Positions 4,739 to 61,882 of a stretch of DNA of 64,000 nt are shown in pieces (the first letter of the stretch is position 1; each line of letters opens with the position of its first letter). The notes beneath the pieces are model-generated. The model did not search any database. It saw only the letters and a program-made list of their open reading frames with translations, and was not told the origin of the DNA. This stretch comes from a virus. A program made the translations under genes and the position numbers. Where the stretch lies: IMG/VR virus record IMGVR_UViG_3300033802_000252, positions 13,891 through 77,890 of that record; one strand, 5' to 3'.

Positions 4739-5527
4739 CTAGCCTAATAAAATGTATTGATATTTCCACTTAATTTTACATTTCCCGTATATTTTTAAAT
4801 AATTATCACCATACACCATCTCTAAAAAAACACCGTTGTGATCTTTATATCTGTTTACCATTGAGAAATTCGTTTCAATCGTTTCTAATTGGCAATCAAT
4901 CACTATATTTTCACCATCAACAAGATCAGAAATTATAAGTTCTTCCCCATGATTAGATAGATTGACGATTTTCACTTCGCCATAATCAACTTTCTCAATA
5001 TAGATAATAGGTTTGATTGGCAGATCGCCTTGATTCTCGAATACATAATCCGTACCATTAATAGTATTGTTTGAATAATCAAAAGTAGATGACTCATACA
5101 CAGGCGAATAAGAATATGGTGAATCACAGCGGAATGTTAAAGTAACATAACCTTGTTGTAATGCATTATGAATAATCCTTGGAGATTCTACAACTAAACA
5201 ATAAAATATTCGTTCTGGATCATTTTCAAAATAGAGTGGTTGATAATAAGATTGTGCTCCCAACCACCTTGCAACTTCTCTAACGCGATCCGAATCAAAA
5301 CCATCTGTAAAAAAAAATGATAATTCAAACTGTAATGGTTCTTGTTCGATTTCTTGAAAATATGGTCGATCATTACCTCTAACACTTACTTCTCTAATCG
5401 TTCTATTCGCTATAAATTGCTCTTCTAATAATCCTTTGTTGAGATTAACATTAACAACACCCATATCTCTACTGCTAATACCTGCGTAATTAAAGTCTAA
5501 AGAGTCTTTGATTGTAATTGCACTCAC
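4739..5527 (-). CDS. Distal tail protein (Dit, YomH-like)
   Basis: Follows tape measure; TLTFRCDSPYSYS motif typical of siphophage Dit. Confidence 0.75.
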   Translation of the reverse strand: MSAITIKDSLDFNYAGISSRDMGVVNVNLNKGLLEEQFIANRTIREVSVRGNDRPYFQEIEQEPLQFELSFFFTDGFDSDRVREVARWLGAQSYYQPLYFENDPERIFYCLVVESPRIIHNALQQGYVTLTFRCDSPYSYSPVYESSTFDYSNNTINGTDYVFENQGDLPIKPIIYIEKVDYGEVKIVNLSNHGEELIISDLVDGENIVIDCQLETIETNFSMVNRYKDHNGVFLEMVYGDNYLKIYGKCKIKWKYQYILLG

Positions 5528-5572: not shown

Positions 5573-8500
5573 TTACAAGCCTCTCTTTTGAAGTTCTTTA
5601 ACAAGCGTGTTGAATACTGTCTCTCCACCTTTTCGATCTCCAGTTATCTTTCCTATATTAATCTTGATATCATAATGCTTGGTTGTTGTTTCATTTCTTG
5701 ATGTTAAATTAGATAGTCTTGGGATTGATATTCTTTGCATAAGATCTCTAGCCAACAGCACGCTCTTTAAAACATTTGACGTGTCTAATTTATCTAATAC
5801 TAATTCTTTCTCATGTAAAAATGCCAATTTCTCTCCCTTAAATTTACCTGTATACCCGCCTGTATCGAATTTCACGACTTTGTTTTTTAATTCCTCGTAA
5901 CTGCCATCTTCGAATCCATATTTGCGTCTAAGCTCATCGTTAATCGCCTTTAAATTTAGATCCCAAACTCCCGTGGCTTTGTAATAATCCTCAGCCATCT
6001 TTTTATTTTGTAAATATTGATTCCAAGCCTCTCTTTTTTCATGGTCATACGAAGTCATATCGCCTACATTTTTCAACAACGACTGAACATTTCTGATTTC
6101 GTTAAGTATATTTTGTCTGATGGATTCTCCAACATTAAACATTGCAGAAGCAACATTGTCTGAAAAATTCGTTAGTTCTTCCTGTAAAGTTGATAAATTT
6201 CCTATTAGAGCTTGAGTACGCATTTCTTGGAATCTAGTTTCGTTCTCTATTTCATTCTCCCAATATGCTTCTGTTGCTTTTGCTTGCTCCTCTAGCCATC
6301 TTTTCGCTGCTTCGTAAGTACCTCTAAACAGTTGTTCTTTAACTCTAACCACATATTGAGCACTTTCTTTTTCTTGCTCAATCTCTTTACGTTTGGCTTC
6401 TAAATTGTCATTTAATGATTGCTTTCGTAATTCTTTTGTACGTCGAAGTTTAAATTCCTCTATTTCTTCAATAATGTTAGCCAAATCTTCTTCTAACTTA
6501 GCTCTTTCTGCTATTGCTTCAAATGAATCATCAAGAGATAGTTCATTTATCCTCTTTTGAATCTTTAATTGTTGCTCTTGTTTTTTCTTTAATTCTTTAT
6601 TAAATTCATCTTCTTCGGATGTGCGATCAATTTGTTTGATGATGGAGTTAACAATTTCTTCATATTTTTGAAGTTCCTCGTCTTTAGCTTTAATAAAATT
6701 ATTATGAAGTTCTTCTAATGCTTCTTTTTCAGTATTGATAGCATCGAGAGCATGTTTCTTTTGCATCTCATAATGTCTTTTAATAAGTTCTATAGCTGAA
6801 TCTAAAGCCGATTCCATATTCTTTTGCCATGCGTTTCTATTGTCCTGGATTAATTTTAATCGCTCTTCTAGTTGTTTCTTCTCTTCATTTAAAGATCTAT
6901 CTCTTAAATCTTTTAATGTAAGTAATAAATCTCTTTCGTCAGATAAGGACTGGCTAAGATATTTAGCGTGCTCTTTTTGTAGTTTTTCGTATGCTTCAAT
7001 CTGTTGATTAATTGACCATTCGTTATATTGTGTATTAAATCTGATAGTTGCAATCGCTTCATCATATGCTTTTTTCAGGTTCTCTAGTTCTATTTCCGCT
7101 AGGGTTTTTCCTGACGATGACGATTTCGAAGTGGAGTTTGAAACGCCATAAGTTCTATCGTTTAGTAAACCACTTAAAACTTTTTGACTTTCTCTAAGTT
7201 CTCCTAATCGAGTGAGAATATTATAAACTCTTTGCTGTTCTTTTAAGCTTGTTGCAATTCTATCATATAATTCGGGTGTATCAGACCAATCGGTAGTTAC
7301 ACCATTTACCGTAATACGTTTGTTTTCATCATCAAATAACATGTTCTTAAAAGCATCAGAACCAAAAATTTTTGAGACATTAAGTTTGTTTATCTCGCTC
7401 ATAGCGTCAGCAAGACTATGTATTGCATCAACCTCTAATTCGTATGCTTTTAAGCGGTCAGATGTGTTATCAAGAGTTGCTTTTGTTTTTTCAATCTCTG
7501 CTTGAATTGCATCATTTGCTTCTTGGATTTTTACTTGTCTTAATACTTCGAGAGCGTCAGAATTTATTTTATAACCATCGGCTGTTTTTTCTATTTGTGA
7601 TGCTAACTGAGGATATTTTAAAATCAAATCAGCTATTGTGTCTGCAGATAAAGATTGTTGTTGAATTTGCGTATCAATGATCTGATTTAATCGTTTGATT
7701 TCATCAACTGGTTCCTTAATAACTTCAGCGAGCGACTTAAATTCATCGAATTCTTCTGCGAGTTTTACTATGTATCCGATTAATCTTTCTGTTCCATCTT
7801 CTAAAATCTCTGTTTCATCACTTAAATATTTGTACCCTTTAGCAGCTATTTCCGATTTATCTTTAACAAATCCAAGTTCATTACCAGATTCGTCTATTAT
7901 CGGAATTAATGACTGGATGTCTTCTTTAGTAACATTGAGTCTGTTTATTAATGTATCAATTGTTTCAATAACTTTGGGATTTTCAGAGTAAATTCGTTTT
8001 AATCCTTCTAAGAAACCTTGTTCAGTTAATGAATCATCTTTAAGCAAATCAATTACATCGGTTGCTTTTTTATTCAATTCTTCAGCAGTTACCCCTGAAA
8101 ACTCCATTGCATCAATTACTTGATACATTTGATCTTTAAAGTTACTACCAAATTCTATTCCAGCCAGAAATGCGGATTCATCTAAAAGTGTTTTAAAATA
8201 ATCTCCTGCGCCATTGGTCATTCGTAGAAGATCTCTGTTAAGAGAAATAAGTTCGTATCTATATGTTCTAAGCTTTGACTCTCCTCTGTGAATCGCTTCT
8301 TCAACATTCGCAATATCTTTGCCTCTTGCTGCAAGCTCATCGCGACGAGAATACAAAACATCAAGACGCTTTTGTTGACCAATAATACGCTCTTCTAGTT
8401 TTTCAATTTCTTTTAGAGTGTTTAATCGACTTTCATCATTTTGCTCGAATTTATCTAAAGCTTCCTGTTTCCTTAAGTCAGCAGTTGCTTTTGCGAGTTC

Positions 8501-11500
8501 TTCTGTTAACTTAAGCTCTCTTTCTAATGCATCACCTGTAAATAAATGCACTCTACCTTTTTCATCTATATGACTTACTAAAGTAGGCAAAAGTTCGGAA
8601 AGTTCTTTTGTAATTCTATAGTACTCTTCTTCTTGTTCTATTGATAAAGTAGAATTTTGTCTTTCTTCCTCTAAATTTCGATAGGAAATAATTAATTGAT
8701 TTATTTTGTTTCTATGATTAATATATGAATCAGTTAATTGGGCATTTTCTTCTTTAATACGCTTTGTTTCTTCGTTCGCTTTGGAAATGTGACTGATTAA
8801 TTTTTCTACCGCCAAGCCAACTCCAGCAACGATTATACCAATCCCTGTCGCTATTGCTAACCCTCTAAGCGCTCCTGCTAAACCAGTTATAGCAACTGTT
8901 GCAACTCTTGAAGCGGTAGTTGCGCCCGTGATGTTTTTAGCTAGACCAAACGCAGACGTGGTAGCTAATTTTTGTGCTACATCTTGTGAACGTATAGCTT
9001 CCGTAAGTTTTAATACATTGGTTCTCGCTTTGGTAGAAAAGATACCAAATAATGTACCAACCGTACCCAAAACCGTTGGAAGTAACCCAAAACGTTCGAC
9101 TAAAGTATCGACATTGTTTGCCATATTATTAAGAAATGTAATGATACCCATTAATGTATCAGATAAAACGGCATCACCCATTGTAAGAGTGAGATTTGTC
9201 CATGCGTTTTTAAGCATGTTAATACGGGCTTCGAATGATTTGAGATATTGTTCATTTTCTCTGTATCCAGAACCTTGGGAGTTTAAAGCTGTATTTGTTG
9301 CTTTTATGGCTTCGTCATATTGTTGCATGAGGATCAAAAACCGCGATAATTGATACCGACCTGCGATTTGTAATCCTATGTTTTGTTGTTGTTCTGCGCT
9401 TAGTTCTTTCCATTTCGAGGCCAAATCAGACAGGATATTTGAAACAGGACGCACAGTTTCTACACCGTCGCGAATTTCGCGAACAGCGACTCCAACTTGT
9501 TCTAATGCTTTGATGCTGGAATCCATAGTTGTTATTCTAGAGAAAATAGTTTTTAATGAGTTGCCGATAATATTACCTGATTCACGAGAAACTTGTCCAA
9601 TAGCTGTAACGTAACCAATTAGTTCTTGAAGCGAAACACCGAAGGTGTTTGCAGCACCCACCGATTTAGTTATTGCACTTACAATGTTTTGGGAAGTGAC
9701 GCTAAAATTATTATCTACCTCATTGATTGCGTCTACTGCAACTAATATCTCTTCAGGCAACATATTAAAGCCTTTAATAATTGCAGTAAGTCCACTTCCA
9801 GCTTCTTCTGGTGTCATTTCAGATATATTCGAAAACAAAGTAGCTGCTTCTGTAAGAGATGTTAATGCTTCTCCTCTAAAGCCTTGACGAGCAAAGTCAA
9901 TAAAAGACTCATTGACACCTTTCATTTCATTCCCAAGTCTTGCTGCTAAATCTGCAGACTCTTTTAAAATCCTCACACGATCAATCTCGCCATTTGACAC
10001 TCTCATAAGAGTAGTCATCTGAGAGTCAATTTCAACAATATTCTGAATTGCAGATCTTAAACCACGAACCGTCCCAAAGAATGCTGTACTAGCTCCCATC
10101 CAGATGGGGAATTTAATCATAGCATTCTGGAAAGCGCCCAAGAAAGTGCTTGTTTTATAAGTGGCGCCCTGCATTTCAATCTGCATTCTCTTTAACTCAT
10201 TATTAACTTCATATAATCGTTTTTCAGTTGCAGCAGAAGTCAAATTCAATCTATCTAATTCATTTCGATATTGCTCTATCTGAGGTCTTGCACGTCTAAA
10301 TAATGCATTATAATCCATTCTTAATAGACGCTGATAAATTTGCTCCCTAAGCTTTGCGTTTCTCTCTTCAAGAGCCATCTCATTTCTAATCTCTTGTTCT
10401 CTTTGAGATAATCTTTGTTTAATCTGATTTAATTCTTTAATGTGATTCTTTGTTTTGGCATTAGATATCTGCTCTTCAAAATTCAACAATTCTTTTTCCG
10501 TCAGCAGCCCATTCTTTCTCATTTGTTCAAGTTGATTCATTAGTGGAATTTTCTTTTGATCAACTTCAACAATTTTTACTTGTTCAGTATATAGCCTCCC
10601 ATATTCTTTTGCCAAACTTTTTATTTGCTCAGGACTCTCGGCTTTTCTTGCTCTATTTTCAATTTGAGTAATTTCATTCTCGTCAATAACACCAGCCAAT
10701 TTCATCTTGCTTAATTTAGACAATAAACTCGTTCTAGCTGATGCTGTTTTATCTAACTTGTTAAACGTCTTTTCTAATTTGTCTAATTCTTGATTTGCTT
10801 GTTTAATATTGTTTACGTCAATTTTATTTAACGAGTGTAAAACATTATTTAATGCTCCTGTCTTACCAGCAGGAAGTTCTTTGTCTGCACGATTAAAACT
10901 AATAATAGCAGACCTTAATCTTTCTATTCGATCCCTTACGGCATCAATTTCTTTTTGTCTTCGCTTGTTAAATTGCTCATTTTCTTTGTATGCTTGATTT
11001 AATAACTTCTCAGACTGTTCTAATTTCTTTATTTCATTGGTGATTCGTGAAAAATCAGCTTTGCTTGATTCTGGTGTTAATTTTGACAATGCTAATCTAA
11101 GTTTGTTTATTTCTTCTGATCCTTCACCAAAGGTTCTGGTTAATAACTGAATTCTATGATTTGCATCATCAGTAAACAACTGCAAAGCTTTTTGTGCTTC
11201 TCTATACGCTTCTGGATTTTTAACAACAGTAAATTCATCTTCATTCGTTTTAATTTCTCCACCATCAAAACGAATACCGTGAGTCGTTTTATTCTCAAAT
11301 TTGTTCCCAACGGTGGTATAAATATCTTCTCTAATTCTTTTTTGACCATCACCCAAGTCTTCAACAGTTTGCACAATTCGTTGTCGCATAGCTAAATTTT
11401 CAGCTAATGCTTTATTGCTACTATAAATAGCATCAACTTCATTTTGTAGAGCATTACTTGCACGCTCTGTTGATTTGGCTACGTCATTTATTGCTTTATT

Positions 11501-11719
11501 TTGAAAGTGATAGCTTTGAGTAATTTTAGATAATTCATTACTCAAGCGAGTAATTTCATTTATAACATTCTTGTCAAGGGTAGCACCCAACTTTATTTTT
11601 TTGAGAGAAGGGTGTTTGGCTAATATTTTAAGGTCTTCGTTAATTTGTTTTAGTGATAATCCATAATTTAAACCAGCCGTTATTCGGAGTCCCATTTTTG
11701 TATTATCCAACGTTCTCAC
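5573..11719 (-). CDS. Phage tail tape measure protein
   Basis: 2048 aa coiled coil, TP901-type core (AINEVDNNFSV...GNSLKTIFSRI), C-terminal FDTGGYTG...LHEKELVL. Confidence 0.92.
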   Translation of the reverse strand: MRTLDNTKMGLRITAGLNYGLSLKQINEDLKILAKHPSLKKIKLGATLDKNVINEITRLSNELSKITQSYHFQNKAINDVAKSTERASNALQNEVDAIYSSNKALAENLAMRQRIVQTVEDLGDGQKRIREDIYTTVGNKFENKTTHGIRFDGGEIKTNEDEFTVVKNPEAYREAQKALQLFTDDANHRIQLLTRTFGEGSEEINKLRLALSKLTPESSKADFSRITNEIKKLEQSEKLLNQAYKENEQFNKRRQKEIDAVRDRIERLRSAIISFNRADKELPAGKTGALNNVLHSLNKIDVNNIKQANQELDKLEKTFNKLDKTASARTSLLSKLSKMKLAGVIDENEITQIENRARKAESPEQIKSLAKEYGRLYTEQVKIVEVDQKKIPLMNQLEQMRKNGLLTEKELLNFEEQISNAKTKNHIKELNQIKQRLSQREQEIRNEMALEERNAKLREQIYQRLLRMDYNALFRRARPQIEQYRNELDRLNLTSAATEKRLYEVNNELKRMQIEMQGATYKTSTFLGAFQNAMIKFPIWMGASTAFFGTVRGLRSAIQNIVEIDSQMTTLMRVSNGEIDRVRILKESADLAARLGNEMKGVNESFIDFARQGFRGEALTSLTEAATLFSNISEMTPEEAGSGLTAIIKGFNMLPEEILVAVDAINEVDNNFSVTSQNIVSAITKSVGAANTFGVSLQELIGYVTAIGQVSRESGNIIGNSLKTIFSRITTMDSSIKALEQVGVAVREIRDGVETVRPVSNILSDLASKWKELSAEQQQNIGLQIAGRYQLSRFLILMQQYDEAIKATNTALNSQGSGYRENEQYLKSFEARINMLKNAWTNLTLTMGDAVLSDTLMGIITFLNNMANNVDTLVERFGLLPTVLGTVGTLFGIFSTKARTNVLKLTEAIRSQDVAQKLATTSAFGLAKNITGATTASRVATVAITGLAGALRGLAIATGIGIIVAGVGLAVEKLISHISKANEETKRIKEENAQLTDSYINHRNKINQLIISYRNLEEERQNSTLSIEQEEEYYRITKELSELLPTLVSHIDEKGRVHLFTGDALERELKLTEELAKATADLRKQEALDKFEQNDESRLNTLKEIEKLEERIIGQQKRLDVLYSRRDELAARGKDIANVEEAIHRGESKLRTYRYELISLNRDLLRMTNGAGDYFKTLLDESAFLAGIEFGSNFKDQMYQVIDAMEFSGVTAEELNKKATDVIDLLKDDSLTEQGFLEGLKRIYSENPKVIETIDTLINRLNVTKEDIQSLIPIIDESGNELGFVKDKSEIAAKGYKYLSDETEILEDGTERLIGYIVKLAEEFDEFKSLAEVIKEPVDEIKRLNQIIDTQIQQQSLSADTIADLILKYPQLASQIEKTADGYKINSDALEVLRQVKIQEANDAIQAEIEKTKATLDNTSDRLKAYELEVDAIHSLADAMSEINKLNVSKIFGSDAFKNMLFDDENKRITVNGVTTDWSDTPELYDRIATSLKEQQRVYNILTRLGELRESQKVLSGLLNDRTYGVSNSTSKSSSSGKTLAEIELENLKKAYDEAIATIRFNTQYNEWSINQQIEAYEKLQKEHAKYLSQSLSDERDLLLTLKDLRDRSLNEEKKQLEERLKLIQDNRNAWQKNMESALDSAIELIKRHYEMQKKHALDAINTEKEALEELHNNFIKAKDEELQKYEEIVNSIIKQIDRTSEEDEFNKELKKKQEQQLKIQKRINELSLDDSFEAIAERAKLEEDLANIIEEIEEFKLRRTKELRKQSLNDNLEAKRKEIEQEKESAQYVVRVKEQLFRGTYEAAKRWLEEQAKATEAYWENEIENETRFQEMRTQALIGNLSTLQEELTNFSDNVASAMFNVGESIRQNILNEIRNVQSLLKNVGDMTSYDHEKREAWNQYLQNKKMAEDYYKATGVWDLNLKAINDELRRKYGFEDGSYEELKNKVVKFDTGGYTGKFKGEKLAFLHEKELVLDKLDTSNVLKSVLLARDLMQRISIPRLSNLTSRNETTTKHYDIKINIGKITGDRKGGETVFNTLVKELQKRGL

Positions 11720-11772
11720 TCACTCCTTTCTCTAACGATGAATAACAAAAAAAAAGGAAGTTCACCTACCTA

Positions 11773-11788
11773 TAAAAGTATAGTTTTA
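11773..11788. repeat. TAAAA-N6-TTTTA inverted site overlapping the recombinase stop codon
   Basis: TAAAA GTATAG TTTTA; same form as the junction sites in 38-59 kb. Confidence 0.5.
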
Positions 11789-12805
11789 ACTGAAGATCTG
11801 GTCGCGTTCTTCTTCAAATTCACGCAAATCATAGTGTTTAATTGTTGTTGAAACATCCTCGTGCTGTGCTATATGTTTAGACACTAATTCCAAACTAACT
11901 TTTTTTACTTCTAACAAATATGTTATACAAGATGCTTTAAACAAATGGGGATTAATTCGCCTTCCTAATATATCAGACAATACGTTTTTACAAAAATCAT
12001 CTGCCCATCCATCAGAAATTGGCTTAATTTCGCCACCATATCTTGTAGTAAAGATATATTCATGATCATACCCACGTTTTTCTACCCATAATTTCATGTA
12101 ACGCAAAGCATCCGTATTAATCATATACTTTCTTTGTTTACCATCCTCTCCCTTTCCCTTAAGCCGAATAAAATGACTGAATACATACGATTTACCATCA
12201 GGAATGGGATAAGATAAAATTTCAGTTTTAAATTGGGGAATCTCTGCTCTTCTAGCCCCCACGTTAAATGCAGTGGCAACCCAGGCTGCCCCAAGATAAT
12301 TTTCATCATCTAATAGAGTTTCCATCATTAAATCATATTCTTCTTTTGTTATCTTTACTTTATTATATACTTGGTTTTTTGGGATCGATGGTAATCCCCT
12401 AGTAAAGTTTTTAAATGACTTGTAGTTTTCATCATCATCTGCGACTATATTTTCAATATAATTATTAAAACTTGAAACGGCAGCTTTTTTTAGACTAATA
12501 CTACTAGAAGATAACCCTCGATTTTGAAGAAAGCTAATATATCTTAAAAAATCGCGCTTTGTTATTTTATTTAAGTTTTTATCATTTAAAACTTCATGAA
12601 CCCACCAAAAAAAGTGATATAACGCTGATCTATATTGAATAAGAGTCTTAGGTGAGAGACTCCCTTTACTTATATCCAAAAACTCATTAACCAATAACCG
12701 ATGTTCTTCTCTAACTTGAGCAAACATTTCCTCAGTAATGTCATCTGCTTTTTCAGCACGATCACGAAGCATGTTCATTTCAATTTTTTTAGTTATGACG
12801 ATCAC
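11786..12805 (-). CDS. Tyrosine recombinase (YomM-like)
   Basis: SAM-like N-terminus; catalytic-type motifs GARRAE, LKGKG, HLFKAS, AQHED, KHYD; syntenic with SPbeta yomM. Confidence 0.88.
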   Translation of the reverse strand: MIVITKKIEMNMLRDRAEKADDITEEMFAQVREEHRLLVNEFLDISKGSLSPKTLIQYRSALYHFFWWVHEVLNDKNLNKITKRDFLRYISFLQNRGLSSSSISLKKAAVSSFNNYIENIVADDDENYKSFKNFTRGLPSIPKNQVYNKVKITKEEYDLMMETLLDDENYLGAAWVATAFNVGARRAEIPQFKTEILSYPIPDGKSYVFSHFIRLKGKGEDGKQRKYMINTDALRYMKLWVEKRGYDHEYIFTTRYGGEIKPISDGWADDFCKNVLSDILGRRINPHLFKASCITYLLEVKKVSLELVSKHIAQHEDVSTTIKHYDLREFEEERDQIFS

Positions 12806-12826: not shown

Positions 12827-13330
12827 TCAATCAATCTTTTTGCCCTTGTAATATACTTCTTTACTAATGACAAAACCCCACCTATTAATTTTATTAAATT
12901 CTTCAATAGCTTTTTCTATAAAGTGAAACCCCTCATAAAATGCCAATCTATAAGGTCCAGTTTTTTTGTTCCATGTCCAACCCTCATTCAAAAGTATTGG
13001 AACAAATCCCGATTCCCCACCAAAAATTGATGGGTGCGTAGCCATATTTTTATCAAAATAAACTTCTATGTGCAATTTATCACCGTCATGCTTCACAGGT
13101 GATATTCTTATTGAATTTAAAAATTGATATGTCCTTTGATATTCTACTGGTTTATAAGAATCATAATAATCCTGTACCTTTCTTTGGAGTATTTTACTAA
13201 GTAAATCCGCAGCTTCTTTTAATGCTTTACTTATTTCGTATGAATTTTTTATTACTTGAGTTGTACCATGTGGACTACCAATATATCTTGCTAAATCATT
13301 TAAATTATTAGCCCATTTCACTCTTGTCAC
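12827..13330 (-). CDS. Phage structural/tail completion protein (YomN-like)
   Basis: Position in tail cluster; YDSYKPVEYQRT motif. Confidence 0.5.
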   Translation of the reverse strand: MTRVKWANNLNDLARYIGSPHGTTQVIKNSYEISKALKEAADLLSKILQRKVQDYYDSYKPVEYQRTYQFLNSIRISPVKHDGDKLHIEVYFDKNMATHPSIFGGESGFVPILLNEGWTWNKKTGPYRLAFYEGFHFIEKAIEEFNKINRWGFVISKEVYYKGKKID

Positions 13331-14093
13331 CGCTTTGTTGCTGTCGTTCCCTTAAAATATTTAAGCGCTCATTCAGTTTTTTCATTTCCTCTACACTAAA
13401 TTTTTGCATATAATCATCATACTTACCCTCATCTTCAAGTTGTTCCAATACCCTGATTAATTGTTCAATGTCTTCATCTTCTGTTATTTCAAAGTTTCTC
13501 GCTTCAAGTTCTGCAAAATAATTATCAATATCAATTCGTTCTTGCTCTACTTGATTTATTTCACTCATCAATCCCAGTTCTATAAACGATTTACTAATAT
13601 TATCACTAGCCTGTTGTAAAATACGATTTAGCAAACTCATGTTCGCTTCACCAAACGGGGAATTTTCACCAAAGAAATATTCGACAATGCCCAAATCAAC
13701 AAGGTTTAATGTTACTTTAACCAACTTACGTACATCATCTAACTTAGGAATAGGTAAGTTAGTAAATTCTTTCAATAACAATGTATTTAGAACATATGAT
13801 GCACCAATAATAGTTTCGTCATTTAACATATTAGAGGCTTTCATCTTTTGAAGAATTGTTATATACTCAGCGTAAACTTCACGAATTTTTGACTCTCTAA
13901 ATTTATTAGAAACAAGAATTTCAAATTGTTCTCCATCCAATTCAAAATAAACTTTCTTTTTTTCATTAAATTGTGATGCTAGTTTGTTTAAAGAAGATGT
14001 GGTTAATTTTTGAGGGGTAGTAGTGCTTCTAATGTTTTTGTTATTATCAGGGGTATACGTAGAGGAACTATTTATTTTTTTATCCGAAGTCAT
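13308..14093 (-). CDS. Hypothetical protein, possible tail assembly chaperone
   Basis: RBS GGAG; lies downstream of the major tail gene. Confidence 0.45.
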   Translation of the reverse strand: MTSDKKINSSSTYTPDNNKNIRSTTTPQKLTTSSLNKLASQFNEKKKVYFELDGEQFEILVSNKFRESKIREVYAEYITILQKMKASNMLNDETIIGASYVLNTLLLKEFTNLPIPKLDDVRKLVKVTLNLVDLGIVEYFFGENSPFGEANMSLLNRILQQASDNISKSFIELGLMSEINQVEQERIDIDNYFAELEARNFEITEDEDIEQLIRVLEQLEDEGKYDDYMQKFSVEEMKKLNERLNILRERQQQSGDKSEMG

Positions 14094-30741: not shown

Positions 30742-31833
30742 ATGAACGTTGTGCAATTACCTGTTCTTTATACAACACACTCAAAAGACCAAGACTATGT
30801 TTATGAACATATAATGCGTTTTCTAAAAGGAAAGGCTAGAAGTAGTGAAAATACCGCAAAAAAATTTAAGCGAGACATTGAAATGTTCTTTAAAGTAGTT
30901 AGAGGTAAAGAACTTCATGAATTAACCAAAAATGACTTGAAAGTAACAAATAGCGAAGTAGTAGATTATCAAGAATATTTGTCTAAAAACTATAAGAACT
31001 CAATAGTAAATAATGCTTTTACAGCAGTAAGAAGCTTATACAAATATCTAAAGCGCAATGATTTTGATGTTAATCCAGATGCAGTCATTGTAGACCGTTT
31101 ACCTGATGACACACTGTCTACAGGGTATTTGCATCATGACGAGGTTATGAAATTGGCAGAGCTTGCTCTTGAAGAAAAACACGATCCCATCATGAAAAAG
31201 GCGATTATTGAAGTTGCCTATGGGACGAGTCTGAGAATTAATGCCTTGTTGAAAATCAGATATAGAGATCTACGAGGAGACGAAATTGATCCAAACAAAT
31301 ATTGGATTGAACCTAGAGACGTAGACGAAGAAGGTCATATAACCAAAGATAAAAGCAAGATGATTAAAAAAGTCATACATGCTGAAGCTATTGAACCTAT
31401 GCTGCGCTTGAAAAAGGCATATGGTTATTCTGATGATGATTATGTCTTCCAGATTAGCCCAAGAGCATTAAATGACATGATCAAGCGTTTAGTTAAAAAA
31501 GCAGGATTAGATCCTAAAAGGGGGATCACTTTTCACAGTTTAAGAAAAGCTGGAGCCATGTCAGCGAGTAAATTATCCAACGGGAATCCTTTTGTTGTAT
31601 CTAAGCAGGGTAATTGGGAAAATCTCGAAACTGTGAATAGACATTATATTCAAAGCCAAGAAAACATAATGGGTATGGCTGCTTTTGAAAACTTTGAAGA
31701 GGATATTTATGAACAATTGACCAAGGAACAATTGATTGAGTTGCTGAATAGTTTAAACGGAGATATCTTGGAGATTAAGCTTAAACGAGAAGCAAGAAAA
31801 ATGATTGCAGAGAGCAGGAAAAGAGAATGTTAA
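30742..31833 (+). CDS. Tyrosine recombinase
   Basis: SLRINAL, KDK, FHSLRKAG, GNW, RHY catalytic set; strong RBS. Confidence 0.88.
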   Translation: MNVVQLPVLYTTHSKDQDYVYEHIMRFLKGKARSSENTAKKFKRDIEMFFKVVRGKELHELTKNDLKVTNSEVVDYQEYLSKNYKNSIVNNAFTAVRSLYKYLKRNDFDVNPDAVIVDRLPDDTLSTGYLHHDEVMKLAELALEEKHDPIMKKAIIEVAYGTSLRINALLKIRYRDLRGDEIDPNKYWIEPRDVDEEGHITKDKSKMIKKVIHAEAIEPMLRLKKAYGYSDDDYVFQISPRALNDMIKRLVKKAGLDPKRGITFHSLRKAGAMSASKLSNGNPFVVSKQGNWENLETVNRHYIQSQENIMGMAAFENFEEDIYEQLTKEQLIELLNSLNGDILEIKLKREARKMIAESRKREC

Positions 31834-37585: not shown

Positions 37586-37702
37586 ATATCTAGATGATAT
37601 ATTAGGAGGAGGCGACACTAAACAGCGCATTAAGCCATGAGCGTTAGACCGCTTTATATGCGGTCTAGGTTGCGATATAATCCACTTATAGGAGGTAATC
37701 AC

Positions 37703-38140
37703 ATGCAACTAACAGACAAGTTATATTACAACGGTTTAACCTTTTACCATGTAGGTAATACAAGCGACAACGATCGTATTTACGAGTCATTGGACGAATT
37801 GATACATTACACAATAACAACAGCACCAGCAGACTATGACGGTGTTTTAATTGCTGTTGTTGACGAGTCTTTTAGAGAGTCGGAGAACGATGACATGATA
37901 CGTTATTTTGACAGCGAAACAGGAAAGGAAGAAACAATAGATGATATAACGGTAATAGAAAAATTAGAAAGCGAACTAACAGAAAGGTTTAACAGTTGCA
38001 CTAATAAAGAACTGGTTTTATTCTCTTACAATGGAATAAGCATAACTAACCCGTTTTTATCTGAATGCATGCGCTATGCTGTATATCCACGATATTATGG
38101 AGTTGACAATATTAATAAAGCAATTGCAGCATTATCATAA
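37703..38140 (+). CDS. Hypothetical acidic protein
   Basis: ATG behind AGGAGG. Confidence 0.6.
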   Translation: MQLTDKLYYNGLTFYHVGNTSDNDRIYESLDELIHYTITTAPADYDGVLIAVVDESFRESENDDMIRYFDSETGKEETIDDITVIEKLESELTERFNSCTNKELVLFSYNGISITNPFLSECMRYAVYPRYYGVDNINKAIAALS

Positions 38141-38146
38141 AGCGGT

Positions 38147-38162
38147 TAAAAGCAGGATTTTA
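38147..38162. repeat. TAAAA-N6-TTTTA junction site
   Basis: TAAAA GCAGGA TTTTA just after stop 38140. Confidence 0.55.
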
Positions 38163-47049: not shown

Positions 47050-47649
47050 TTGTGGTGGATTATATGCAGATATAGTATGATAGAAGAATACACAGACAAA
47101 AAGGAGAGAAAATATAGAATGTGGTTGAATTTTCATCGGAGAATCAATCAAGGCAAAGTTTATGATGAGCCACAATTGGTTGTAATTCCGATTGATCCTC
47201 ATCGAAGAAATTATGATTTTGAAGTTGTCTCTGGTTCATTCTGGGATATTAAAGGTAATGAATATCTTTCTAAAGATCAAGCGTTGATTAAAGGAGTAAA
47301 GGAAAGCGATATTTTGTTTGAAGAAGATGTACTTGATGAGCATGTGTGTTTGGCTTATAGATATGAGAAGAGTTATTCAGATAAAGTAAATCATGCGAAT
47401 GCTAAAAAGGCAGGGTTTGGTGTAATTAAAATGATTAAAGGAGACCAGACAGGAACTGAATACATGTATTGCTTATATCAGACTATACGTGCATTGAATA
47501 TTCTTATTTATGGTTACTTAACACATGGTTTTGTTGATCTCAAATTACTAAACAAAATTAAGACCGACAAGAAGTTGCAGAATGAACTATCATTTATTCT
47601 CGGTAATAATCAAGATGTTTATAGTAGCATTATGAACTATGGAAAATGA
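47050..47649 (+). CDS. Hypothetical protein (true start probably ATG 47119)
   Basis: AAGGAG RBS before MWLNF. Confidence 0.55.
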   Translation: MWWIICRYSMIEEYTDKKERKYRMWLNFHRRINQGKVYDEPQLVVIPIDPHRRNYDFEVVSGSFWDIKGNEYLSKDQALIKGVKESDILFEEDVLDEHVCLAYRYEKSYSDKVNHANAKKAGFGVIKMIKGDQTGTEYMYCLYQTIRALNILIYGYLTHGFVDLKLLNKIKTDKKLQNELSFILGNNQDVYSSIMNYGK

Positions 47650-47681
47650 TTTTTATTTTGTCGTTATTTTTAAGTATGTGA

Positions 47682-47697
47682 TATCGATATATAAGAT
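47682..47697 (+). promoter_or_regulatory. TATCGATATA promoter-like motif
   Basis: TATCGATATA-TAAGAT. Confidence 0.7.
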
Positions 47698-47728
47698 GAG
47701 TTCAAAATATGACTTGGAGGTATCTTAT

Positions 47729-48079
47729 ATGAACAACAATCAAACGACCGCACATGCAAGATATGAAGCACATGTTAAAGAATCTTTACTGGCTGGAAAA
47801 CCAGTCGAGTATAGATTGAAAGACTTTTTACCAAAGGATAATAAAAGCAAGACAAAACGATCACGACCAAAAACAAAGTATGAAAAAATGGTGCTTGAAG
47901 CATTTGAAGAAGGCAAAATAATGTTTCCCAAAATGCACGAGGATGTGACTATTAGACACGCTTATATTAAAAGTACAATCATGCACTGGATGTCAGAGTG
48001 TGAATCCATTGACGAAGTGAAAGAACTATACAACACTTATAAAAGAATTACATATAACACACCAGTATTCGAGTATTAA
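47729..48079 (+). CDS. Hypothetical protein
   Basis: ATG behind GGAGG. Confidence 0.6.
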   Translation: MNNNQTTAHARYEAHVKESLLAGKPVEYRLKDFLPKDNKSKTKRSRPKTKYEKMVLEAFEEGKIMFPKMHEDVTIRHAYIKSTIMHWMSECESIDEVKELYNTYKRITYNTPVFEY

Positions 48080-48106: not shown

Positions 48107-48122
48107 TAAAATAAATCTTTTA
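48107..48122. repeat. TAAAA-N6-TTTTA junction site
   Basis: TAAAA TAAATC TTTTA between terminator and RBS. Confidence 0.6.
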
Positions 48123-48143: not shown

Positions 48144-48320
48144 ATGAAAGACGTTTATATTCAAGAGTGTAATTCTTGTGGAGCAGAATTTCCAGTCCAA
48201 TACACAAAAGGCGGTTATAATTATATAGGAGAAACTTGTGATTGTGAAGATTCTTTTTCTCCACGTTGGGATTCTCCTAGTATTTCAGAGTGGGAGCAAC
48301 AACAGAGCAAGAGCCAATAA
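48144..48320 (+). CDS. Small Cys-rich protein bounded by junction sites (not in ORF track)
   Basis: GGAGG RBS; CNSC...CDC; stop TAA begins TAAAA-CAAGTC-ATTTA. Confidence 0.6.
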   Translation: MKDVYIQECNSCGAEFPVQYTKGGYNYIGETCDCEDSFSPRWDSPSISEWEQQQSKSQ

Positions 48321-50572: not shown

Positions 50573-50757
50573 TAAGTGGTAAAACAATAGTAGTGGAGGA
50601 AAAGTCTGGTGCTATTGTCGGAACTTCGCTTAGAGGCGTAAGGACTGGTGTTGAATACGGTGATATAAAAATAATGGAAAATCAAGTGGAAAGAGCCTGT
50701 AAAGAAAATGTAACAATTATCAGCGAAGAAGAATTTTGGAGGATTTACGACAAGAAT

Positions 50758-50773
50758 TAAAAATGACATTTTA
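50758..50773. repeat. TAAAA-N6-TTTTA junction site
   Basis: TAAAA ATGACA TTTTA before RBS. Confidence 0.6.
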
Positions 50774-56515: not shown

Positions 56516-57007
56516 ATGAAAAAAGATATTTTTCTTATTAAAACTAATCAAGGATTAGGTGATTATGTTGTATATAATGATGAAGAGATTCAAGTATATG
56601 GTGATGTTACTTTAGTTGGTTTCAAGGACTATCATAATACACCAATATTTAGATATGATTTGTTTGATGAGAGATCTGATACAGTTTCAGTGGAAGATAG
56701 AGGATTAGCAGATTATACTCGCTATCTGCTTATTGAACGGTTAACGGATAAGATATTTATGATTAGAGTATTTGACAGTTTATTTCAACCGATAATGCAT
56801 AATTACTTTGCTAAAATGGATGCTTATAGTGATTATGCGGATCAACGCTTCGTACATGAATTTATACTTTATGATGAAAAATTAAAGGAGATAAGTGCGA
56901 GTCATACTGTAAACTTGAAACAAACACACTTGTCAGAAGATAAGTTGTTTAAATGGTGTGCAGATGTGATTAGTAGAGATTTGAAACCTAAACATCACGA
57001 AGATTAA
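56516..57007 (+). CDS. Hypothetical protein
   Basis: AAGGAG RBS. Confidence 0.6.
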   Translation: MKKDIFLIKTNQGLGDYVVYNDEEIQVYGDVTLVGFKDYHNTPIFRYDLFDERSDTVSVEDRGLADYTRYLLIERLTDKIFMIRVFDSLFQPIMHNYFAKMDAYSDYADQRFVHEFILYDEKLKEISASHTVNLKQTHLSEDKLFKWCADVISRDLKPKHHED

Positions 57008-57008
57008 T

Positions 57009-57024
57009 TAAAACTACAATTTTA
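57009..57024. repeat. TAAAA-N6-TTTTA junction site
   Basis: TAAAA CTACAA TTTTA between stop and RBS. Confidence 0.6.
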
Positions 57025-60904: not shown

Positions 60905-61882
60905 GTGTCAAATATTGTGTATCAAAATGATGTATATAACAGCGATGTGAAGAATCAATATATAAGCGAAATTAAGTCAAGCTCTTCGATTTTTCGCATC
61001 TTCAAGGCAGCGGCACCACTTGAAGAATTTTTTGGTAAGGATCTATACAATTTCAACCGGGAAGAGCTAAGGAGCTTGTTTTTTGTCCTGAACCCATCGA
61101 AGATAAATGCCAGTTATCAAAACGGCGCCCTGGTTTCTGGTTATTTAGAATGGGCAATACAACATGGTTATAGAAAAGCGATTAATCCATTACTTTCGGT
61201 GGATAGAGAATATTACAAGCAGTTTGTGAACGCAGGTAAAATTTATTTTACTGAGGAAGAACTTGAAAATTTCATTAGCAAATGTAAGAACGCACAGGAT
61301 GCTGTGATAATTCGATTGAAAATGGAAGGCGTAGGGGGCGTGGCTAATTCTGAATTAATTAATCTGAAGATAGGGGATGTTAATGAAGAAAAAAGAGAAT
61401 TGCGGTTAATGAACCACGAAGGAGAAATACGTTATTTAACAGTGAGTGACAAATGTATCTCATTATGTTTGGCAGCTCAACGACAACAAACGTACTTAAA
61501 GAAAAATGGAGCGTATAAGAAAGAAACAAAAGCAACAACCACCAAGCTTGTTGAAAATGATTATATATTGAGGTCATCAATAACCAGAACTGAAAGCTAC
61601 CAAGAAGCTGAAAAACATTTGATTCATCGAAGATTAAAGGTACTTTCGGATTTCTTTAATGAGCCATATTTAACATCAACAAATATTATGTATTCCGGTA
61701 TGTTAATTATGGCTAGGGACATTTACAAGGAAACGGGAAAGTTGGACGTGGTTAATTGTAGCGCGATACTAACGAAATTTGGATTTGATGATGTTGGAGA
61801 GGGCGGTGAATTGGCTTATTACAGGTTCAAGAAAGAATTTTTGAATGTAGAAAAGGTAAAAGAACTGTATGGTTTAGATTAA
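60905..61882 (+). CDS. mrpR: Recombinase-fold master repressor (YopR/MrpR-like)
   Basis: 325 aa; YNSDVKNQY, KDLYNFN, NAQDAVII..MEG, IMYSGM; lacks catalytic HxxR/Y. Confidence 0.7.
   Translation: MSNIVYQNDVYNSDVKNQYISEIKSSSSIFRIFKAAAPLEEFFGKDLYNFNREELRSLFFVLNPSKINASYQNGALVSGYLEWAIQHGYRKAINPLLSVDREYYKQFVNAGKIYFTEEELENFISKCKNAQDAVIIRLKMEGVGGVANSELINLKIGDVNEEKRELRLMNHEGEIRYLTVSDKCISLCLAAQRQQTYLKKNGAYKKETKATTTKLVENDYILRSSITRTESYQEAEKHLIHRRLKVLSDFFNEPYLTSTNIMYSGMLIMARDIYKETGKLDVVNCSAILTKFGFDDVGEGGELAYYRFKKEFLNVEKVKELYGLD

What the first reader, a model, noticed from the sequence alone, without database searches (positions are those of the whole stretch)
11761..12805. YomM-like recombinase inside the tail operon ends in its own TAAAA-N6-TTTTA site
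Seen: the stop codon of the 339-aa tyrosine recombinase is the first TAA of TAAAA-CTATAC-TTTTA (minus strand, 11788-11773), directly upstream of the tape measure gene. The enzyme keeps R, K, H, H and Y, with HxxK in place of HxxR. Established: in SPbeta, accessory genes (yomJ-yomL, yozP) lie between yomM and the tape measure gene yomI; this phage has none there. Inference: this is an empty attI-like site, and YomM, whose role in a structural operon is unexplained, may be the cassette recombinase.
Basis: partly seen in the sequence, partly recalled or inferred. Interest (0 to 1): 0.75.

Follow-up and report, generated by a model that had tools for sequence, protein, structure and literature searches.

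The report
Tail-operon recombinase ending in junction palindrome
A DNA cutting-and-rejoining enzyme gene among the tail genes of this large SPbeta-like phage does end in the reported palindrome. That palindrome is one of about 30 copies marking gene borders across the genome, so it is not the enzyme's private docking site. Whether the enzyme uses these marks is a testable open question.

Summary
ORF 11786-12805(-) is the ortholog of SPbeta YomM (68% identity). Its TAA stop begins TAAAA-CTATAC-TTTTA (11788-11773), 54-66 nt before the tape measure gene. In 82 distinct homologs R, K, H, H and Y are invariant, and Lys replaces the second Arg in all but one.

The site is not private. The 148.6-kb phage has 30 copies, against 0-8 for other spacings. 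SPbeta has 34, and four other relatives have 17-37. Control phages have almost none.

The copy after yomM is conserved in position: 36 of 86 distinct homolog loci carry it within 40 nt of the stop, where about 0.5 is expected. It sits at a border where related phages differ. SPbeta and phi3Ts turn from divergent to 99.7% identical 5 nt from it.

The integron-like reading fails:
- there is no IntI signature;
- the sites are simple palindromes;
- inserts lie on both sides of the site and are rarely flanked by two copies.

YomM is one of only ten proteins shared by all six palindrome-rich phages. It remains the leading named candidate for the docking protein, at odds of about 0.3. Lactococcus phage 949 has the enzyme without the motif.

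Earlier reports of this scan described both the YomM family and the palindrome on this and other DNA.

The parts
11786..12805 (-). yomM ortholog: 339-aa Xer/Cre-type tyrosine recombinase with active site R185, K216, H287-x-x-K290, H315, Y325
   Evidence: (68.5% to SPbeta YomM, 71% to Geobacillus E3 gp28). AF2 model pLDDT 82; Foldseek top hits XerA, Cre, Tn1549 Int and XerH.
11773..11788 (.). TAAAA-N6-TTTTA palindrome whose first TAA (minus strand) is the yomM stop codon. It is the only intergenic copy in the minus-strand late gene block.
   Evidence: Conserved in position in 36 of 86 homolog loci.
11767..11794 (.). Extended 11-6-11 span of the same site. The outer arms match the genome's consensus TTCCgA-TAAAA at 4 of 6 positions on each side.
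   Evidence: Consensus; sequence. The match was counted by eye.
11720..11772 (-). Spacer between the site and the tape measure start, with a T9 run and the ribosome-binding site. No significant hairpin.
   Evidence: z about 0 against shuffles; no terminator-like site on this strand.
5573..11719 (-). Tape measure protein gene (2048 aa)
   Evidence: Pfam PhageMin_Tail, E 3e-26.
12827..13330 (-). 167-aa tail-module gene directly upstream of yomM. It is in the position of yomO and overlaps the next upstream gene by 23 nt.
   Evidence: phrog_7299 virion structural protein. Synteny with SPbeta yomO and SPBc2p037.
13308..14093 (-). 261-aa tail-module gene upstream
   Evidence: phrog_7383.
12215..12230 (.). 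Second copy of the pattern, inside yomM. It is a by-product of the conserved codons for Q-F-K-T-E-I-L.
   Evidence: The same offset (-439 to -442) recurs in L010, L015, L016, L025 and phi116.
38147..38162 (.). Junction copy 7 nt after the stop of ORF 37637-38140(+)
48107..48122 (.). Junction copy between ORFs 47639-48079(+) and 48144-48320(+)
50758..50773 (.). Junction copy whose TAA is the stop of ORF 50593-50760(+), the same arrangement as at yomM
57009..57024 (.). Junction copy 2 nt after the stop of ORF 56516-57007(+) and 14 nt before the next start
30742..31833 (+). YopP-like tyrosine recombinase (363 aa), a rival candidate for binding the palindrome
   Evidence: 28% to SPbeta yopP. No homolog detected (E <= 1e-3) in palindrome-rich phi116 and Staphylococcus SPbeta-like.
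60905..61882 (+). MrpR/YopR-like protein with a degenerate recombinase fold (325 aa), a rival candidate for binding the palindrome
   Evidence: In SPbeta MrpR binds a different element, SPBRE (PMC10516654).

Best explanation
The gene is the ortholog of SPbeta YomM. This is a Xer/Cre-type tyrosine recombinase fixed between the tail genes and the tape measure gene of SPbeta-like, E3, Tsamsa-like and 949-like phages. Its active site looks usable, with Lys in place of the second Arg throughout the SPbeta branch.

The palindrome over its stop codon is one copy of a gene-junction palindrome, (A)TAAAA-N6-TTTTA(T), with weaker outer arms that differ from phage to phage. That pattern points to a docking site on double-stranded DNA for a paired, phage-encoded protein.

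At this position the copy marks the border between the conserved yomM block and a variable stretch in front of the tape measure gene. In this phage that stretch is empty. Related phages have exchanged or gained DNA exactly at this border.

Shown: the gene, the residues, the site, its copy number, its conservation in position, and the border.

Inferred: that a protein docks there, and that exchange happens between the same junction on two genomes rather than by capture of free cassettes. Which protein docks is not shown. YomM is the best named candidate, at odds of about 0.3.
For: Identity and synteny.

Copy number and spacing specificity:
- 30 copies in the own genome against 0-8 for N0-N15;
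- 34 in SPbeta against 0-4;
- top 5-N-5 palindrome de novo in phi116 (37), Tsamsa (23), E3 (30) and Staphylococcus SPbeta-like (17);
- controls: SPO1 0, A511 0, phage K 4 against 4 for the reversed pattern.

Location: 47-77% of copies lie outside genes in the six palindrome-rich genomes (60-77% in five of them), where only 10-14% of the DNA is non-coding. The TAA of the motif is often a stop codon.

Outer arms are palindromic and phage-specific.

Conservation in position at yomM: 36 of 86 loci, about 0.5 expected.

Border:
- The SPbeta 398-bp insert ends at the left edge of the site when compared with BUCT082.
- The last SPbeta-specific marker against phi3Ts lies 5 nt from the site, followed by 18 kb of identity.
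- Four of the 8 ends of the crossover intervals (stretches with no marker telling SPbeta from phi3Ts) lie within 8 nt of a copy.
Against: No binding or cleavage data exist. Half of the homolog loci lack the copy near the stop. Staphylococcus, Mammaliicoccus and Tsamsa relatives have a strong hairpin there instead. The excess of homology break points at copies shrinks once one allows for break points favouring intergenic DNA: 7 of 62 observed against 0.55 at random, but about 3-4 expected if all break points were intergenic. A small RNA-level role cannot be excluded for every copy.
Confidence: 0.6

Rival explanations
1. YomM itself is the enzyme of the junction palindromes. A dimer would bind each 11-6-11 site and exchange strands only between copies with the same 6-bp spacer, that is, the same junction on two genome copies or on two co-infecting relatives. 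That would give module exchange, resolution of joined genomes, or closing of terminally redundant DNA into a circle. The system would work like dif modules but with the phage's own Xer-like enzyme.
For: The site has the arm-spacer-arm layout of Xer, Cre and Flp core sites. One copy is kept at the gene's own end in 42% of loci, and it is the only intergenic copy in this phage's late operon. Catalytic residues are invariant in 82 homologs. Only 10 proteins of this phage have detectable homologs in all five other palindrome-rich genomes. Of those with a recombinase fold (the only recognisable DNA-site binders among them), MrpR binds another element in SPbeta and YopP is missing from phi116 and Staphylococcus SPbeta-like; YomM remains. 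A mosaic border lies at the site.
Against: Lactococcus 949 has the enzyme in the same place but no enrichment of the palindrome (7 copies). Staphylococcus, Mammaliicoccus and Tsamsa relatives have many copies but none next to the gene. The gene is in the late operon, while most copies lie in the early and accessory regions. The palindrome tracks temperate lifestyle. Small helix-turn-helix proteins would escape my tblastn profile. The second Arg is Lys.
Confidence: 0.3
2. The palindromes are roadblock or operator sites for a protein made in the lysogen, working like the stoperators of cluster A mycobacteriophages. The copy after yomM is just one of them. YomM would have an unrelated job with a site still unknown.
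For: About 30 copies lie in short intergenic gaps. The palindrome is rich in the temperate phages and poor in 949; that 949 is virulent is from my own knowledge. The MrpR-like protein has exactly the same distribution as the palindrome among the seven genomes. Earlier scan reports leaned this way.
Against: ChAP-seq of MrpR in SPbeta gave ten peaks, all at SPBRE, which is a different sequence (PMC10516654). No other conserved lysogeny protein was found in all six genomes. The site is symmetric, whereas stoperators are oriented.
Confidence: 0.3
3. One reading: an empty attI-like site with YomM as an integron-type cassette recombinase that captures free gene cassettes between yomM and the tape measure gene.
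For: The interval is a hot spot that is empty here. In L024 two exact copies bracket two small ORFs.
Against: No match to integron-integrase models; the best match is XerC at 58 bits. The sites are 16-28 bp palindromes, not folded attC hairpins. Most inserts have one copy or none at their borders and lie on either side of the site. The right border at the tape measure gene carries no copy in the B. subtilis group.
Confidence: 0.05
4. The palindrome at the stop codon is a chance product of an AT-rich gene end, or a weak terminator.
For: The genome is 34% G+C. TAA followed by AA is a common gene end. A T9 run follows 23 nt later.
Against: The spacing is N6-specific, 30 copies against 0-8. The site is conserved at this position with at least 10 different spacers, and is kept intact even when displaced 4-25 nt from the stop. 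It does not fold better than shuffled sequence.
Confidence: 0.03

Closest known systems
SPbeta YomM (NP_046588) and the yomM-yomI interval
   Same: 68.5% identical, the same place in the tail operon, the same R-K-HxxK-H-Y pattern.
   Different: SPbeta has a 398-bp insert plus yomL, yomK and yomJ between yomM and the tape measure gene, and its palindrome copy lies 402 nt after the stop. Here the interval is empty and the copy overlaps the stop. No paper in the searchable library mentions yomM together with subtilis.
Tyrovirus gp50 / Tsamsa gp227 with its putative attP (PMC9703825)
   Same: A homolog (32%) between tail genes and the tape measure gene. The published note describes an 11-6-11 inverted repeat right after its stop, with the role stated as unknown.
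   Different: The Tsamsa enzyme has canonical HxxR. Its repeat is a single-copy sequence (TAATC-N6-GATTA core), not the TAAAA palindrome, although Tsamsa has 23 TAAAA copies elsewhere.
XerC/XerD with dif, and pdif modules of Acinetobacter plasmids
   Same: 11-6-11 layout, many copies flanking gene modules, best family match XerC. An earlier scan report named this as the closest analogue.
   Different: The score is far below the XerC and XerD cut-offs (58 against 335 bits). There is one enzyme rather than two. The sites are phage-borne, and no activity is shown.
Cre-loxP of phage P1
   Same: A phage-encoded simple recombinase of the same fold (Foldseek TM about 0.6). A symmetric arm-spacer-arm site lies near the gene.
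   Different: P1 has one loxP. Here there are about 30 sites with different spacers. The gene sits in a late tail operon.
Integron integrase IntI with attI and attC
   Same: A tyrosine recombinase next to a variable gene stretch, with sites at the 3' ends of genes.
   Different: No IntI model matches, there is no folded attC structure, and inserts are not bracketed by sites.
MrpR (YopR) and SPBRE of SPbeta (PMC10516654)
   Same: It shows that a recombinase-fold protein of these phages can act purely as a site-specific DNA binder at about 10 intergenic sites.
   Different: MrpR has lost the catalytic residues and binds a different sequence. YomM keeps its residues.

Membership tests
Tyrosine recombinase superfamily (Pfam PF00589 plus SAM-like N-domain) | Profile match over the curated cut-off and the two-domain fold | tested here: met
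   PF00589 at 28.1 bits against cut-off 27.1; PF02899 at 35.2 against 22.3. AF2 model with core-binding and catalytic domains; Foldseek E about 1e-9 to XerA, then Cre and XerH.
Tyrosine recombinase superfamily (Pfam PF00589 plus SAM-like N-domain) | Catalytic Arg I, Lys, His, His/Trp and nucleophilic Tyr | tested here: met
   R185, K216 (or K223), H287, H315 and Y325 are invariant in 80-81 of 82 homologs.
Tyrosine recombinase superfamily (Pfam PF00589 plus SAM-like N-domain) | Catalytic Arg II (HxxR) | tested here: not met
   Lys290 here and in 80 of 82 homologs. Arg occurs only in the 949 and Tsamsa branch. Whether Lys supports catalysis cannot be tested here.
YomM/gp50 tail-module recombinase family | Orthology to YomM and position directly upstream of the tape measure gene, or of its variable gap | tested here: met
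   68.5% to YomM. The synteny is seen in SPbeta, Goe11, BUCT082, E3, Staphylococcus SPbeta-like, phi116, 949 and Tsamsa.
Integron integrase (IntI) | Match to an integron-integrase model or the IntI-specific extra domain | tested here: not met
   NCBIfam lists only XerC, archaeal XerA, PRK00283 and XerD, all far below cut-off, and no bacterial integron-integrase (IntI) model.
Integron integrase (IntI) | attC-type imperfect hairpin sites following each cassette, and an attI next to the integrase | tested here: not met
   The sites are strict 16-bp palindromes with a free 6-bp centre. The fold is no better than shuffled sequence. Inserts are rarely bracketed by sites.
XerC/XerD chromosome-dimer resolvases | Score over the equivalog cut-off | tested here: not met
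   TIGR02224 at 58.2 bits against 335; TIGR02225 at 32.4 against 330.
dif-like core site (11-6-11) | Two inverted arms of about 11 bp around a 6-bp centre | tested here: met
   SPbeta consensus TYTnrA-TAAAA-N6-TTTTA-TynARA; own genome TTCCgA-TAAAA.
dif-like core site (11-6-11) | Bound and cleaved by the cognate recombinase | not testable with these tools
   Needs gel shift, ChIP-seq or an in vitro recombination assay.

The most novel reading that the evidence does not exclude
SPbeta-like phages carry their own Xer-like enzyme, YomM, made with the tail and perhaps delivered with it. It would work on about 30 junction sites that are addressed by their different 6-bp spacers. Only the same junction on two DNA copies could then recombine. 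This would let the phage swap gene modules precisely with relatives. It could also close a circularly permuted, terminally redundant genome into a circle wherever the headful cut falls.
Probability: 0.25. Interest if true: 0.85.

Novelty: new variant of a known kind. Interest (0 to 1): 0.5.

Why it matters
YomM is among the best conserved proteins of a large group of Firmicutes phages that includes the model phage SPbeta, yet no function has been published for it. The junction palindrome is equally undescribed in the papers I could search. If the two belong together, these phages would have a built-in, site-addressed way of exchanging gene modules. That would explain their mosaic genomes and give a new multi-site recombination tool. 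If they do not belong together, the palindrome is a new genome-wide control mark and YomM still needs a role. SPbeta genetics can settle either outcome with standard experiments.

Tried and rejected
1. My first look at eight phage records suggested the site is not conserved. The survey of 86 loci overturned that.

2. SPBRE, the MrpR operator, as the identity of the palindrome: rejected. SPBRE is a different sequence, and the MrpR peaks are not at yomM.

3. A YonO promoter: rejected. [quoted passage not shown]

4. An RNA hairpin or terminator in the window: no fold signal.

5. A shared TAATC-N6-GATTA site after the recombinase genes of Tsamsa and Enterococcus phage vipetofem looked like a family-wide cognate site. 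In vipetofem it is an ordinary terminator that is absent from 86%-identical relatives, so the match is a coincidence.

6. YopP as binder: no homolog detected in phi116 and Staphylococcus SPbeta-like, and present in palindrome-poor 949.

7. A host factor: unlikely, because the outer arms differ between phages and other AT-rich phages of the same hosts lack the motif.

8. Break points of homology among the 93 loci pile up at the copy after yomM (46 against 6.9 expected). This is confounded by the gene end, so I do not use it as evidence.

9. Laboratory hybrids of phi3Ts and SPbeta: three of their five crossover intervals cannot be placed. Two fall in an 18-kb stretch identical in both parents and a third spans 4.9 kb. 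One lies in a 40-nt interval without a copy, which points to ordinary homologous exchange there.

10. Supplement of PMC5467207 for yomM expression: nothing held.

Full report
What is there.

On the minus strand the ORF 11786-12805 encodes 339 aa and ends ...AGT TAA AAC TAT ACT TTT ATA. Its TAA is therefore the first three bases of TAAAA-CTATAC-TTTTA (11788-11773). The protein matches the SAM-like N-domain and the Phage_integrase catalytic domain and PHROG 1. It is 68.5% identical to SPbeta YomM and 71% identical to Geobacillus E3 gp28.

The next gene, 54-66 nt downstream, is a 2048-aa tape measure protein. An AlphaFold model built on 29 homologs (pLDDT 82) has the usual two-domain recombinase fold. 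Its nearest solved structures are XerA, Cre, Tn1549 Int, XerH and lambda Int. NCBIfam puts it nearest XerC, but at 58 bits against a cut-off of 335, and no bacterial integron-integrase (IntI) model matches.

Active site.

In 82 distinct homologs taken from 109 loci, R185, K216/K223, H287, H315 and Y325 are invariant. Position 290 is Lys in 80 of them and Arg in one, Lactococcus 949. Tsamsa gp227 also has HxxR.

Synteny.

The recombinase gene sits directly before the tape measure gene in Staphylococcus SPbeta-like, Mammaliicoccus phi116, Lactococcus 949 and Tsamsa. In B. subtilis SPbeta, Goe11 and BUCT082, and in E3, extra genes lie between. More distant homologs (26-27% identity) in Enterococcus vipetofem and Bacillus BtCS33 lie near the lysis genes instead.

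The Tyrovirus paper (PMC9703825) describes the homolog gp50, notes an 11-6-11 inverted repeat right after its stop, and leaves its role open. I found no paper that names yomM together with subtilis. The SPbeta comparative paper does not mention it either.

This phage also has a large serine recombinase and three other genes with a recombinase fold: a canonical Xer-like one, a YopP-like one and an MrpR-like one. YomM is therefore unlikely to be the integrase.

The palindrome is real but not private.

The window holds 12 copies against 1.24 expected. The whole 148.6-kb record holds 30, while spacings N0 to N15 other than N6 give 0-8.
- About 21 of the 30 copies lie outside genes, although 86% of the DNA is coding.
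- In six copies the TAA of the motif is a stop codon, exactly as at yomM.
- A ribosome-binding site usually follows within a few bases.

SPbeta has 34 copies against 0-4 for other spacings. A de novo scan of all 5-N-5 palindromes puts TAAAA-N6-TTTTA first in phi116 (37), Tsamsa (23), E3 (30) and Staphylococcus SPbeta-like (17), but not in 949, which has 7. SPO1 and A511 have none, and phage K has 4 against 4 for the reversed pattern.

Weaker outer arms make the site 11-6-11, and they differ between phages: TTCCgA here, TYTaaA in SPbeta, CTTgA in Tsamsa. This argues for a phage-encoded paired DNA-binding protein and against both a host factor and a mere RNA hairpin. The copy at yomM does not fold better than shuffled sequence.

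The palindrome is not SPBRE, the MrpR operator, which is a different sequence at ten promoters. It is not a YonO promoter either, because YonO starts the late operon once, upstream of yonK. Two earlier reports of this scan on this genome reached the same general description of the palindrome.

The copy after yomM is special in one respect.

Among 86 distinct homolog loci, 36 carry an exact copy between -6 and +40 of the stop, and 43 do so with one mismatch allowed. The background density predicts about 0.5. At least ten different spacers are seen. When the copy is displaced by 4 to 25 nt from the stop it stays intact, so the palindrome is kept, not just the stop codon. In this phage it is the only intergenic copy in the whole late block.

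The site is absent at this position in the Staphylococcus, Mammaliicoccus and Tsamsa relatives. These have a strong hairpin there instead.

Is it an empty attI?

The interval to the tape measure gene ranges from 54 nt to more than 4.6 kb. Inserts lie on both sides of the copy.
- SPbeta has 398 bp placed exactly between the stop and the left edge of the copy when compared with BUCT082.
- L070 has a different 716 bp at the same spot.
- L076 has a 370-aa ORF there, with the copy then 65 nt before the tape measure gene.
- The B. subtilis group has its variable genes after the copy and its terminator.

Only L024 shows two exact copies around two small ORFs. The side next to the tape measure gene normally has no copy. 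This is not the pattern of integron cassettes.

A recombination border.

I used the laboratory hybrids of phi3Ts and SPbeta to place diagnostic markers. The last SPbeta-specific marker lies 5 nt from the copy after yomM. From the copy onward the two natural phages are 99.7% identical for about 18-20 kb. On the tape measure side they are unrelated or 87% identical.

Four of the eight ends of the crossover intervals, stretches with no marker telling SPbeta from phi3Ts, lie within 8 nt of a copy. In a plain BLAST comparison, 7 of 62 alignment ends lie within 10 nt of a copy, against 0.55 at random. If all ends were intergenic, about 3-4 would be expected, so this genome-wide figure is only suggestive. 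Of the five laboratory crossover intervals, two fall in the 18-kb stretch identical in both parents and a third spans 4.9 kb, so they cannot be placed. One lies in a 40-nt interval without a copy.

Who binds the palindrome?

Only ten proteins of this phage have tblastn homologs in all five other palindrome-rich genomes:
- the tape measure protein;
- YomM;
- a portal-like protein;
- the terminase;
- a 296-aa protein;
- the MrpR-like protein;
- three replication proteins;
- a 556-aa protein.

MrpR binds SPBRE in SPbeta. The YopP-like protein has no detectable homolog in phi116 and Staphylococcus SPbeta-like. That leaves YomM as the only named candidate that is always present.

The evidence against is real:
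- 949 has YomM but not the palindrome;
- the MrpR-like protein matches the palindrome's distribution better;
- the palindrome follows temperate lifestyle;
- YomM is a late gene, while most copies are in early regions;
- small DNA-binding proteins would escape this profile.

I put the YomM link at about 0.3.

Verdict.

The site is not the enzyme's own, the integron analogy fails its membership tests, and the enzyme-site link is untested. The YomM family and the palindrome were both noted before by this scan on this and other genomes. New here are three results: the positional conservation of the copy after yomM, the base-level border at it, and the shared-protein profile that narrows the candidate binders.

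Noticed in passing
window 30742-31833 (+): A YopP-like tyrosine recombinase (363 aa, 28% identical to SPbeta yopP) lies far from the yopQ/yopR-like genes.
   Followed up: partly
own genome G000:C1:5216-6118 (-), outside the window: A fourth recombinase: a canonical Xer-like enzyme of 300 aa (PF00589, 128 bits) with HSLRH and LGH...Y boxes and no homolog in SPbeta.
   Followed up: partly
SPbeta NC_001884 about 40129 (-), inside the 398-bp insert between yomM and the palindrome (L113): A one-mismatch copy of the SPBRE core (MrpR operator/promoter) sits in the unannotated insert just after yomM. It may drive a short transcript toward the palindrome and terminators.
   Followed up: no
L004:5005-5075 and other B. 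subtilis-group loci: After the palindrome comes a conserved terminator. The palindrome's own bases (AAAATCCCTC) can pair with the terminator's 3' arm (GAGGGATTTT) in place of the terminator's 5' arm. This offers two alternative folds and resembles an attenuator.
   Followed up: partly
many loci, about 2.0-2.2 kb upstream of the yomM stop (for example L005 about 2948, L027, L030, L050): A second copy of the palindrome recurs at a conserved position between the major-tail-like gene and the next gene. The window has no exact copy there.
   Followed up: no
Lactococcus phage 949 (L131, L132, L164, L165): 949 lacks the TAAAA palindrome but has about 10 copies of a different one, ATTAT-N3-ATAAT (TATTA-N5-TAATA).
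   Followed up: no
Staphylococcus phage K NC_005880: 8377-8392 and 148208-148223: The exact 16-mer of the B. subtilis yomM site (TAAAATCCCTCTTTTA) occurs in each copy of the long terminal repeat of phage K, about 110 nt from the repeat's end. This is probably chance or part of a terminator.
   Followed up: no
Tsamsa KC481682 130155-130170 (L008 about 4990-5030): The published 'attP' repeat after gp227 is single-copy in Tsamsa. It is conserved, with a 9-bp duplication, in 78%-identical relatives (L125, L127) and has no T run, so it is not an ordinary terminator.
   Followed up: partly
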